From Candidatus Finniella inopinata (GTDB taxonomy: Bacteria > Pseudomonadota > Alphaproteobacteria > Paracaedibacterales > CAIULA01), in contig NZ_SCFB01000004.1 of the NCBI RefSeq assembly GCF_004210305.1, positions 289,554 to 313,553 of the forward strand: a stretch of DNA of 24,000 nucleotides, read 5' to 3'. Shown here in pieces: positions 23,030 through 23,328 of the stretch. Under the pieces are notes generated by a model that made no database searches, was not told where the DNA came from, and was given only the letters and a program-made list of their open reading frames with translations. Numbering within the stretch: the stretch's first letter is position 1; each line of letters starts with the position of its first letter. The translations under genes were made by a program, and so were the position numbers.

Positions 23030-23164
23030 TTAATGACAGTTACAATACTTAGAGCCAAAGTTTTCAAAACTAGTACAACCATTTCCGAGAGTCATTTCTG
23101 ACGCTGCACCAAGAGATACAAACAACTGACTGATTTTTTTTACTATATTTTCATTTGTCTTCAT
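23030..23164 (-). CDS. Lasso peptide precursor A1 (44 aa), not in the ORF track
   Basis: Hand translation gives MKTNENIVKKISQLFVSLGAASEMTL / GNGCTSFENFGSKYCNCH. It has Thr at -2, Gly1 and Glu8, which fits an 8-residue macrolactam. The 18-aa core has three Cys. Confidence 0.8.
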   Translation of the reverse strand: MKTNENIVKKISQLFVSLGAASEMTLGNGCTSFENFGSKYCNCH

Positions 23165-23223
23165 ATTAAAACCTATTTATTAAGTTAATAAAGCTTCAAA
23201 ACAGAGGATTTCAACAACCTAAA

Positions 23224-23328
23224 TCACGCCCATTTCATACCAAAGTTTTCAAAACTATTACTACACGTCCCGAGAGTCATCTCCGAAGCCGCACCAAGAG
23301 ATACAAACAACTGAATATTATTCATCAT
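23224..23328 (-). CDS. Lasso peptide precursor A2 (34 aa), not in the ORF track
   Basis: Hand translation gives MMNNIQLFVSLGAASEMTL / GTCSNSFENFGMKWA. The RBS AAGGAAGG lies 5 nt upstream. The leader segment QLFVSLGAASEMTLG is identical to that of A1. It has Thr-2, Gly1 and Glu8. Confidence 0.8.
   Translation of the reverse strand: MMNNIQLFVSLGAASEMTLGTCSNSFENFGMKWA

What the first reader, a model, noticed from the sequence alone, without database searches (positions are those of the whole stretch)
23030..23328. Two tandem precursor genes with an identical leader core but divergent, Cys-containing core peptides
Both small ORFs are below the track's size cutoff and were found by hand translation. 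A1 is MKTNENIVKKISQLFVSLGAASEMTL|GNGCTSFENFGSKYCNCH. A2 is MMNNIQLFVSLGAASEMTL|GTCSNSFENFGMKWA. They share QLFVSLGAASEMTLG, with Thr at -2 as the recognition residue, and the ring-closing frame G1...SFE8-NFG. Residues 2-5 and the tails differ. A1 has three Cys (C4 in the ring, C15 and C17 in the tail), an odd number. That allows one ring-to-tail disulfide (class III-like) plus a free thiol, or metal binding through the C-x-C-H end. A2 has a single ring Cys and only a 7-residue tail with W14 as the obvious plug. One B/C pair would have to process both substrates. The DNA of the two leaders is nearly identical, so this is a recent duplication followed by core diversification.
Basis: seen in the sequence. 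Interest (0 to 1): 0.8.

Follow-up and report, generated by a model that had tools for sequence, protein, structure and literature searches.

The report
Two unannotated lasso-peptide precursor genes
Two tiny unannotated genes in the protist endosymbiont Candidatus Finniella inopinata are very probably genuine precursors of "lasso" peptides made by the three enzyme and exporter genes next to them; this is a new example of a well-known kind of bacterial peptide system, with some unusual cysteines and an unusual host.

Summary
Two minus-strand ORFs, A1 (23030..23164, 44 aa) and A2 (23224..23328, 34 aa), read exactly as reported. They sit directly upstream of a fused B1/B2 leader protease, an Asn-synthetase-like cyclase (C) and an ABC exporter (D).

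A diverged sister locus keeps both ORFs. The A1 core shows only synonymous changes there. About 20 related precursors from relatives with B proteins 32-43% identical all keep Thr(-2) and Glu8, and Gly1 in all but one (Ala1).

So the lasso reading is well supported: cleavage at TL|G and a Gly1-Glu8 ring.

- The duplication is not recent. It predates the split of two sampled lineages, and the identical leader is held by purifying selection.
- Several precursors per cluster is normal for this family and for known alphaproteobacterial clusters.
- Cys positions vary among relatives, so disulfide, class III and metal ideas remain untested.

The host is Candidatus Finniella inopinata. The cluster is low-GC and lies in a stretch that also carries integrase, IS and R-body genes.

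Verdict: a new member of a known kind, of moderate interest.

The parts
23224..23328 (-). A2, lasso precursor gene (34 aa; 33 aa if it starts at the second ATG, 23325). Leader MMNNIQLFVSLGAASEMTL, core GTCSNSFENFGMKWA (15 aa).
   Evidence: ORF list. Orthologue in L002, MNNIQFFVSLGAVSEMTLGPGCNSFENFGSKWN, is in frame. Thr(-2), Gly1, Glu8, F10, G11, K13 and W14 are retained while 5 core residues changed. Strong RBS just upstream.
23030..23164 (-). A1, lasso precursor gene (44 aa). Leader MKTNENIVKKISQLFVSLGAASEMTL, core GNGCTSFENFGSKYCNCH (18 aa).
   Evidence: ORF list. A 93%-identical orthologue, P0001, lies on L002. Core: 3 synonymous and 0 non-synonymous codon changes, including both tail Cys codons.
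23055..23129 (.). Copy 1 of the 75-nt direct repeat (leader end plus ring region of A1).
   Evidence: the repeat finder family D2, 87% identity to the copy at 23240-23314.
23240..23314 (.). Copy 2 of the 75-nt direct repeat (leader end plus ring region of A2).
23334..23341 (-). Shine-Dalgarno-like AAGGAAGG, 5-8 nt upstream of the A2 start codons.
   Evidence: Read from the sequence. Conserved in L002.
23346..23365 (-). 8-bp hairpin CAGACTCA-ATAG-TGAGTCTG between the promoter-like site and the A2 RBS. Function unknown; possibly a 5'-UTR stabiliser or an operator.
   Evidence: Sequence and local fold. Only 6 of 8 pairs are kept in L002, with no compensatory change. The whole-region fold is not unusual (z = -0.3).
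23369..23396 (-). Best sigma-70-like promoter match of the region (TTGACT-16-TATCAT, 10/12), upstream of A2.
   Evidence: A consensus match only, and only partly conserved in L002.
22258..22998 (-). B, fused leader-recognition (B1/RRE-like, about aa 1-90) and B2 cysteine protease (aa ~131-246). Putative triad C186/H218/D230.
   Evidence: PF13471 at 2.2e-19. NF033537 lasso_biosyn_B2 at 79.2 bits, cut-off 33. Triad columns invariant in 6 homologues. AF2 model pLDDT 68.7. Foldseek top hits are TbiB1 5v1v and B1 6jx3, both bound to leader peptides (prob 0.99, E 0.03-0.1, TMt 0.56-0.61). NCBI names it a lasso peptide biosynthesis B2 protein.
20397..22235 (-). C, Asn-synthetase-like lasso cyclase (612 aa). 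PP-loop SGGSDS at residue 257; no N-terminal Cys nucleophile.
   Evidence: PF00733 at 53.8 bits, cut-off 21. Best NCBIfam models are macrolactam and lasso cyclases, but below their cut-offs. PP-loop. Collinear with B in all related loci.
18648..20360 (-). D, half-size ABC exporter (TMD + NBD, 565-570 aa).
   Evidence: PF00664 and PF00005. Generic ABCB/Atm1/MsbA-like by PDB sequence search.

Best explanation
A2 and A1 are two functional precursor genes of one lasso-peptide operon, A2-A1-B-C-D, on the minus strand.

Proposed mechanism:
1. The conserved leader segment (I/V)-x-S-L-G-x-A-x-E-(L/M)-T-L is bound by the RRE-like N-terminal domain of B.
2. The B2 cysteine-protease domain (C186/H218/D230) cuts after Thr(-2)-Leu(-1), freeing Gly1.
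3. C (PP-loop SGGSDS) adenylates the side chain of Glu8, the only acidic residue in each core, and joins it to the Gly1 amine around the pre-folded tail.
4. This gives an 8-residue macrolactam threaded by a 10-residue tail (A1) or a 7-residue tail (A2). The conserved K13 and Y14/W14 act as the plug region.
5. D exports both products and probably protects the producer.

Expected products: an 18-mer (lactam M 1948.729) and a 15-mer (lactam M 1659.681).

Shown here: the ORFs, their conservation and selection, the enzyme families and their motifs, and the family-wide Thr(-2) and Glu8, with Gly1 in all but one peptide (Ala1).

Inferred: threading, plug identity, any disulfide or metal site, export and immunity, and the target. 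My best guess at the role is a secreted microcin-like toxin. Whether it targets competing bacteria or the protist host is open, at roughly 45:35 with the rest 'other'.
For: - ORFs and translations. An independent 75-nt repeat.
- B, C and D domain hits. Invariant Cys-His-Asp columns in B. PP-loop in C. The RRE-like fold of the B N-terminus is closest to lasso B1 proteins bound to leaders.
- The orthologous locus L002 keeps both ORFs. A1 has 9 synonymous and 3 non-synonymous codon differences, with its core at 3 and 0. The shared leader of A1 and A2 has 5 synonymous and 0 non-synonymous.
- 19 precursors from 11 loci (window/L001, L002, L003, L005, L006, L008-L011, L023, L024; B proteins 32-43% identical outside L002) all have Thr(-2) and Glu8, and Gly1 in 18 of 19 (Ala1 in L011). 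The L026 peptides follow the same rule. Many of these ORFs were called independently by the gene callers of the source assemblies.
- All tested family precursors give weak hits to Pfam PF24178 'Lasso peptide subterisin', and one relative passes the cut-off.
- The Thr(-2) rule, the class definitions and multi-precursor clusters are established (PMC7549694).
- Chaxapeptin has the same TL|G junction and the same 15-mer layout (PMC6856326).
Against: - There are no expression data and no product data.
- The window precursors score below the cut-offs of every curated precursor model (PF24178 13.3 and 12 bits vs 27; NF033525 18 and 13.8 vs 30).
- C scores far below the curated cut-offs of the lasso-cyclase NCBIfam models, and neither B nor C has a sequence match in the PDB.
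- The RRE fold match has weak E-values and comes from a medium-confidence model built on a 5-sequence alignment.
- Part of my precursor harvest used a T-x-G-x6-E pattern, so 'all have E8' is partly circular. A relaxed pattern found no alternative candidates next to B.
- The host is an obligate endosymbiont with a decaying, IS-rich neighbourhood, so the cluster could be silent.
Confidence: 0.82

Rival explanations
1. Only A1 is a working precursor. A2 is a duplicated copy drifting towards loss.
For: A2 has 7 non-synonymous against 5 synonymous codon differences from its orthologue. Its non-synonymous rate is about 5 times that of B and C (7/34 vs 15/323, p = 0.002). Its leader is only 18-19 aa.
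Against: The frame is intact in both lineages. Every residue needed for processing is retained (T-2, G1, E8), as are F10, G11, K13 and W14. A2 has the best RBS of the operon and sits first after the promoter-like site. The changes cluster in ring positions 2-5 and in the tail, as expected for diversifying cores. Short second leaders of 11-15 aa occur in L026 relatives.
Confidence: 0.08
2. The whole cluster is a silent, horizontally acquired relic that the endosymbiont no longer expresses.
For: Cluster GC is 31%, against 47% for the housekeeping part of the window. The neighbourhood holds an IS, an integrase, toxin fragments and a toxin-antitoxin pair. The review of the group notes that R-bodies have not been observed in this host although the genes are present (PMC11909080).
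Against: A1, A2, B, C and D are all intact, and B is 96% identical at protein level to its L002 orthologue. The synonymous-only change in the A1 core and in the leader shows ongoing purifying selection. The lasso cluster of another amoeba symbiont is transcribed and regulated through its life cycle (PMC8831229).
Confidence: 0.1
3. The ring forms but the peptides are branched-cyclic rather than threaded, or the Cys residues define another RiPP chemistry (thioether, sactionine or similar).
For: Topology cannot be read from sequence. The A2 tail is short (7 residues). Cys is frequent in this family.
Against: No radical-SAM, LanB/C/M, YcaO or other tailoring gene lies in the operon. ORFs downstream of D have no homologue in any related locus. 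Threaded 15-mers with an 8-residue ring and a 7-residue tail exist, for example chaxapeptin and sungsanpin.
Confidence: 0.05
4. The small ORFs are chance reading frames in a repeated non-coding spacer.
For: They are short, and no pipeline in the protein collection called them.
Against: The substitutions follow a codon-position pattern. The frames are conserved in L002. Homologous called genes exist in distant loci. They sit in front of B-C-D.
Confidence: 0.01

Closest known systems
Microcin J25 system (mcjABCD)
   Same: Same gene order A-B-C-D. Single fused B protein, Asn-synthetase-like C and a half-size ABC exporter. The Gly1-Glu8 8-residue ring of MccJ25 and its mcjABCD gene order are from my own knowledge. 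The export/immunity role of McjD is described in PMC13352647.
   Different: mcj has one precursor and a 21-aa Cys-free core, and is carried on an enterobacterial plasmid. No close sequence relationship was found: McjD was not among the 60 best PDB matches listed for D, and B and C have no PDB sequence match.
Alphaproteobacterial multi-precursor lasso clusters (caulosegnins I-III, caulonodins, astexins-2/3) and the subterisin precursor family PF24178
   Same: Several precursors with related leaders and different cores are matured by one B/C pair (PMC7549694). The hosts are Alphaproteobacteria. The leader type gives weak PF24178 hits.
   Different: The window peptides are below the PF24178 cut-off. 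From my own knowledge, those clusters usually carry a lasso isopeptidase rather than an ABC exporter. Their cores lack Cys.
Chaxapeptin / sungsanpin (Streptomyces 15-mers)
   Same: The chaxapeptin precursor ends ...EDTL|GFGSKPLDSFGLNFF. It has the same TL|G junction, a 15-residue core, an 8-residue ring, an acidic residue at 8, F10-G11, a hydrophobic residue at 12 and an aromatic residue at 14, as A2 does.
   Different: Asp8 rather than Glu8. Only 4 of 15 residues are identical. The producer is an actinobacterium, and that cluster has no dedicated exporter. This is a shared layout, not demonstrated homology.
Cys-bearing lasso classes: BI-32169 (class III, ring-tail disulfide), LP2006 / pandonodin (class IV, tail-tail), sviceucin (class I)
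   Same: A1 has Cys in the ring (C4) and in the tail (C15, C17), so a class III-like or class IV-like bridge is geometrically conceivable. Pandonodin, listed as class IV in PMC13352647, comes from a proteobacterium (Pandoraea) by my own knowledge, so Cys-bridged proteobacterial lassos would have precedent.
   Different: A1 has three Cys plus a C-terminal His. A2 has one Cys. No known class has an odd Cys count, and connectivity is untested. The producer lives in host cytosol, a reducing compartment.
Lasso cluster of amoeba symbionts (Amoebophilus asiaticus Aasi_0899-0902, with homologues in Paracaedibacter symbiosus and Odyssella thessalonicensis)
   Same: A lasso cluster in obligate cytosolic symbionts of protists, two of them in the same family as Finniella. 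It is transcribed, and a role in host interaction has been proposed (PMC8831229).
   Different: None of those organisms appeared among the B or C homologues or the genome loci retrieved here. They are therefore not close relatives at the sensitivity used. A direct comparison was not possible.

Membership tests
Lasso peptide (RiPP class) | Precursor with a leader carrying Thr at the penultimate (-2) position | tested here: met
   A1 and A2 both end ...EMTL|G. Thr(-2) is present in all 19 family precursors tabulated. The rule is stated in PMC7549694.
Lasso peptide (RiPP class) | Core starting with Gly (or Ala/Ser/Cys), with Asp or Glu at position 7-9 for the isopeptide bond | tested here: met
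   Gly1 and Glu8 in both cores, and E8 is the only acidic residue in each. E8 is fixed across the family, with G1 in 18 of 19 peptides and A1 in one.
Lasso peptide (RiPP class) | B2 transglutaminase-fold cysteine protease with a Cys-His-Asp triad | tested here: met
   PF13471 at 69.9 bits (cut-off 26). NF033537 at 79.2 bits (cut-off 33). C186, H218 and D230 are invariant.
Lasso peptide (RiPP class) | RRE / B1 (PqqD-like) leader-binding domain, separate or fused to B2 | tested here: inconclusive
   No Pfam hit for B residues 1-131. The AF2 model shows beta-strands followed by helices (pLDDT 71-91 over most of residues 1-90). The best PDB matches are the lasso B1 proteins 5v1v and 6jx3 with bound leaders (prob 0.99, TMt 0.56-0.61), but E is only 0.03-0.1.
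Lasso peptide (RiPP class) | ATP-dependent Asn-synthetase-homologous lasso cyclase (C) | tested here: met
   PF00733 at 53.8 bits (cut-off 21). PP-loop SGGSDS at residue 257. The best NCBIfam models are macrolactam and lasso cyclases, although below their equivalog cut-offs.
Lasso peptide (RiPP class) | Threaded [1]rotaxane topology of the product | not testable with these tools
   Needs MS/MS, ion mobility, protease or heat tests, or NMR on the product.
Class III / class IV / class I lasso peptides | One ring-tail disulfide, one tail-tail disulfide, or two disulfides | not testable with these tools
   A1 has C4, C15 and C17. A2 has C3 only. Connectivity and redox state are unknown. Cys positions vary among relatives.
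Pfam PF24178 (subterisin-type lasso precursors) | Score at or above the gathering cut-off (27 bits) | tested here: not met
   A1 scores 13.3 bits and A2 12.0 bits. A relative from L026 reaches 31 bits.
NCBIfam NF033525 (albusnodin-family lasso peptide) | Score at or above the cut-off (30 bits) | tested here: not met
   A1 scores 18 bits and A2 13.8 bits.
mcjABCD-type (exporter-associated) lasso clusters | Dedicated ABC exporter encoded with A, B and C | tested here: met
   D carries PF00664 and PF00005, and its start codon lies 36 nt after the C stop. An immunity function was not tested.

The most novel reading that the evidence does not exclude
The odd Cys counts are functional.

One version: A1 (C4, C15, C17, H18) and A2 (one Cys) form a disulfide-linked two-component lasso, three plus one Cys giving one intramolecular and one intermolecular bridge.

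Another version: A1 uses a Cys3-His set to hold a metal ion across ring and tail.

In either case the exported peptides would act on the protist host, or on the uninfected cells it competes with. They might do so together with the R-body genes about 5-10 kb away; R-bodies serve the killer trait in related symbionts, and the delivered toxin of that trait has never been identified (PMC11909080).
Probability: 0.06. Interest if true: 0.85.

Novelty: new member of a known kind. Interest (0 to 1): 0.4.

Why it matters
- It adds two unannotated lasso precursors, and a small and previously undescribed 'FENFG' core family, to a group of bacteria (Holosporales-type protist endosymbionts) whose chemistry is almost unknown. 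A recent review of the group does not mention lasso peptides at all.
- An obligate cytosolic symbiont that keeps an exporter-linked lasso operon under purifying selection implies a real ecological role, either defence against competitors or manipulation of the host.
- The three-Cys-plus-His tail and the single-Cys partner are unusual for proteobacterial lassos and give a simple chemical question.
- The precursor segment diverges three to five times faster than the adjacent enzyme genes. That makes it a compact example of core diversification under a fixed maturation machinery.
- None of this changes what is known about how lasso peptides are made.

Tried and rejected
- RNA explanations: Rfam at gathering threshold found nothing in the window. 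The fold of 23160-23400 is no better than shuffles (z = -0.3).
- tRNA as an island boundary: none found.
- PDB sequence searches for the B profile and for C: no match. D matches only generic ABCB/Atm1-type exporters.
- Metagenome scan with the B profile: only four distant short loci (L019-L022), in which I could not identify a precursor. L007 and L012 also gave none (contig ends).
- Exhaustive HMMER search with the A1/A2 profile against 1.84 billion proteins: only 3 hits, so the called family is tiny.
- Full-text search for FENFG, SFENFG, EMTLG and YCNCH: no lasso-related paper.
- ORFs downstream of D (287 aa, 84 aa, 55 aa) as possible tailoring genes or extra precursors: no Pfam hit for the 287-aa and 84-aa ORFs (the 55-aa ORF was not scanned), and no homologue of any of the three in any related locus. 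Rejected as cluster members.
- Extra precursor copies elsewhere in the window: none.
- The 'recent duplication' idea: rejected (see the interpretation verdict).

Full report
**1. The observation**

The two ORFs are real and read exactly as reported. A1 is 23030..23164 (minus strand, 44 aa). A2 is 23224..23328 (minus strand, 34 aa).

A purely mechanical repeat search returns the same duplication: a 75-nt direct repeat, 23055-23129 / 23240-23314, at 87% identity.

In the 15 codons encoding QLFVSLGAASEMTLG the two copies differ at five codons, and all five changes are synonymous. The next four codons (core positions 2-5) all differ non-synonymously. SFENFG is again identical apart from one synonymous change.

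Neither peptide sequence exists among about 15 billion called proteins. They are therefore unannotated in the records that collection covers, including the Finniella entries of the neighbouring B and C proteins.

**2. Context**

Directly downstream on the same strand lie three genes.
- B (22258..22998) matches PF13471 and NCBIfam 'lasso peptide biosynthesis B2 protein' at 79 bits against a cut-off of 33.
- C (20397..22235) matches Asn_synthase, and its best NCBIfam matches are macrolactam and lasso cyclases.
- D (18648..20360) is a half-size ABC exporter.

Gaps between genes are 22-36 nt.

B's 100%-identical database entry is from Candidatus Finniella inopinata. This is a cytoplasmic endosymbiont of the amoeboflagellate Viridiraptor invadens (PMC11909080).

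RefSeq and the sister locus both start B at the ATG at 22998. The upstream ATG at 23025 is out of frame in the sister locus.

The best promoter-like site of the region (TTGACT-16-TATCAT) and a strong AAGGAAGG ribosome-binding site precede A2.

The cluster has 31% GC, against 47% for the housekeeping left part of the window (accA, mfd and others).

**3. Enzyme features**

- The presumed catalytic Cys186, His218 and Asp230 of B are invariant in six homologues that are only 35-43% identical.
- C has the PP-loop SGGSDS at residue 257 and no N-terminal Cys.
- The N-terminal ~90 residues of B have no Pfam hit.
- An AlphaFold model (mean pLDDT 68.7; 71-91 over most of that domain) finds lasso B1 proteins crystallised with their leader peptides as its best PDB matches: TbiB1 5v1v and 6jx3. 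Probability is 0.99, TM-score normalised to the target is 0.56-0.61, and E is only 0.03-0.1.

I read B as a fused B1-B2 protein, as in microcin J25-type clusters. The RRE assignment is probable rather than proven.

**4. Evidence that the small ORFs are genes**

A 2.3-kb metagenome contig (L002) is a diverged orthologue of this locus and carries both ORFs in the same order. Its B gene is 96.6% identical to the window's at DNA level.

- A1 against its orthologue: 9 synonymous and 3 non-synonymous codon differences. The three replacements lie in the N-terminal leader. The 18-codon core has 3 synonymous and 0 non-synonymous changes, including TGT->TGC at both tail cysteines.
- A2 against its orthologue: 5 synonymous (one of them the stop codon) and 7 non-synonymous. 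T(-2), G1, E8, N9, F10, G11, K13 and W14 are untouched, while the ring Cys moves from position 3 to position 4.
- Paralogue-specific synonymous codons (Gly1 GGA in both A1 genes and GGG in both A2 genes; Gly11 GGC against GGT) show that A1/A1' and A2/A2' are orthologous pairs.

The duplication is therefore older than the split of these lineages. The identical leader is maintained by selection, not by youth.

**5. The wider family**

B homologues are rare:
- five in a 5.8-billion-protein search;
- five close loci (39-44% identical, in Alphaproteobacteria and Holosporaceae MAGs) among 185,579 species genomes, the other six matching only the B2 end in unrelated phyla;
- four distant ones in the metagenome collection.

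Small ORFs next to B, many of them called independently by the source pipelines, give 19 precursors from 11 loci. Every one has Thr at -2 and Glu at core position 8. Eighteen start with Gly and one with Ala.

A subfamily shares the core x-F-E-N-F-G-x-(K/R)-(W/Y):
- the window's A1 and A2;
- their L002 orthologues;
- four peptides of L003: GDGNGDFENFGCKWNKK, GNGANTFENFGSKWAGK, GDGDDTFENFGCKWKKQ and GGWGEAFENFGCRW....

An exhaustive HMMER search of 1.84 billion proteins with the A1/A2 profile found only the L002 and L003 peptides and one more relative, P0015.

Part of my harvest used a T-x-G-x6-E pattern, which makes the E8 statistic partly circular. A relaxed pattern found no competing candidates adjacent to B.

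Several precursors per locus are common here: three or four in L003, three in L005 and three in L026.

All tested members give weak hits to Pfam's subterisin lasso-precursor model. The window peptides are below its cut-off.

**6. Mechanism**

The best-supported account is canonical lasso maturation.
1. The leader is bound by the N-terminal domain of B.
2. B2 cuts at TL|G.
3. C activates Glu8 and forms the lactam to Gly1 around the tail.
4. D exports the products.

E8 is the only carboxylate in each core, so the ring size is unambiguous if a ring forms.

The invariant K13-aromatic14 pair is the obvious candidate for the steric lock. A threaded 15-mer with an 8-residue ring and a 7-residue tail has precedent in chaxapeptin, whose precursor ends ...EDTL|GFGSKPLDSFGLNFF, and in sungsanpin.

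Threading, plugs, export and immunity are inferences.

**7. The cysteines**

- Within the FENFG subfamily Cys occurs at positions 3, 4, 12, 15 and 17, and one member has none.
- Only A1's C4/C15/C17/H18 set is shown to be conserved.
- A ring-to-tail bridge (class III-like) or a C15-C17 bridge is possible for A1. A2, with a single Cys, cannot form an internal bridge.
- Disulfide-containing lassos are not confined to Actinobacteria: pandonodin is listed as class IV (PMC13352647) and, from my own knowledge, is proteobacterial. The 2020 statement in PMC7549694 is therefore already outdated.
- The producer lives in host cytosol, so free thiols or metal binding are at least as plausible as disulfides.

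None of this is testable here.

**8. Divergence pattern**

Against L002, the precursor segment is a divergence hot spot.

| Segment | DNA identity |
|---|---|
| A2 | 81.9% |
| A2-A1 spacer | 88% |
| A1 | 89.6% |
| B | 96.6% |
| Start of C | 95.2% |
| Far upstream region | 97.5% |

- Synonymous-difference codons number 14 of 79 in A1+A2 against 21 of 323 in B+C (Fisher p = 0.003).
- A2's non-synonymous differences number 7 of 34 against 15 of 323 (p = 0.002).
- The excess at synonymous sites suggests that the precursor cassette has a deeper history than its flanks, through recombination or long-lived alleles.
- The sample is small and I did not pursue this further.

**9. Comparison and novelty**

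The system works like mcjABCD and like the multi-precursor alphaproteobacterial clusters. It meets every sequence-testable criterion of the lasso class except that the RRE assignment is only probable. It fails the cut-offs of the curated precursor subfamilies.

Lasso clusters in protist symbionts have been reported:
- Amoebophilus asiaticus, with homologues in Paracaedibacter and Odyssella (PMC8831229);
- Ca. Megaira (PMC10132079).

Those organisms did not appear among my homologues.

I found no paper mentioning a lasso cluster in Finniella.

Verdict: a real, canonical, previously unannotated two-precursor lasso operon. It is a new member of a known kind, with a modestly unusual core chemistry and host.

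Noticed in passing
L026:291-515 and L026:882-1106 (JGI metagenome contig; P0015 also on L027): Two 74-aa ORFs each contain two complete leader-core units in one reading frame. One example is ...VELGTATTLTL|GGCSNSMENF...HKNQIELGKATSLTL|GSGTKLFE.... Both units have T(-2), G1 and E8. 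These look like 'double-cassette' lasso precursors, which I do not recall having been described. The Pfam subterisin model hits the 291-515 ORF (the one scanned) in two stretches.
   Followed up: partly
window 23030-23400 versus L002: The precursor segment is 82-90% identical between the two lineages, while the flanking B, C and far-upstream DNA are 95-97.5% identical. The excess holds even at synonymous sites (p about 0.003). This suggests recombination or long-lived alleles at the precursor cassette.
   Followed up: partly
window 12443-13787 (minus): Three tandem RebB (R-body, 'killing trait') genes, two of them related by a 115-nt repeat, lie about 5 kb from the lasso operon's D gene (about 9-10 kb from the precursors). 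R-body genes in Finniella inopinata are known, but R-bodies were never observed in it. The toxin delivered by R-bodies in related killer symbionts is unidentified.
   Followed up: partly
window 9028-10504 and 10779-11942: There is an IS element: a DDE transposase (9219..10367) flanked by 28-nt inverted repeats at 9028-9055 and 10477-10504. A tyrosine integrase gene follows it. No tRNA gene is present. GC is 47% over 1-9000 and about 38-41% at the IS/integrase (9-11 kb); it recovers to 42-46% at 11-14 kb, is 34-45% at 14-18 kb, and falls to about 30% only over the lasso cluster (18-24 kb), so the right-hand stretch looks mosaic.
   Followed up: partly
window 16807-17016 (minus), 16298-16717 (minus), 15703-16247 (plus): A 69-aa ORF consists only of a colicin-type 'Cytotoxic' domain (PF09000, 2e-20). 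A weak DUF7683-like ORF, possibly an immunity gene, follows it. An RHH/ParE toxin-antitoxin pair is also present. The 287-aa and 84-aa ORFs upstream of the Cytotoxic ORF have no family and could be remnants of a larger polymorphic toxin.
   Followed up: partly
window 23411-23450: Two adjacent copies of an A/T-rich 17-mer, AAAAAAT(C/T)AATTTGACT on the plus strand, lie just upstream of the promoter-like site of A2. Only one copy is recognisable in L002. This may be an operator or UP-like element.
   Followed up: no
L003 (ENA metagenome scaffold) 4159 (minus), 5837, 10554, 11377: The closest distant relative carries four FENFG-type precursor genes scattered around its B-C-D genes. Two lie downstream of the exporter and one on the opposite strand beside transposase fragments. 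The locus also holds ParE, a resolvase, a Tn3-like transposase and an ankyrin-repeat gene. It looks like a mobile element in an endosymbiont-like genome.
   Followed up: partly
window 6966-9055 (plus): Two overlapping ORFs of 448 and 248 aa have no Pfam family. They lie between mfd and the IS element (confirmed).
   Followed up: no
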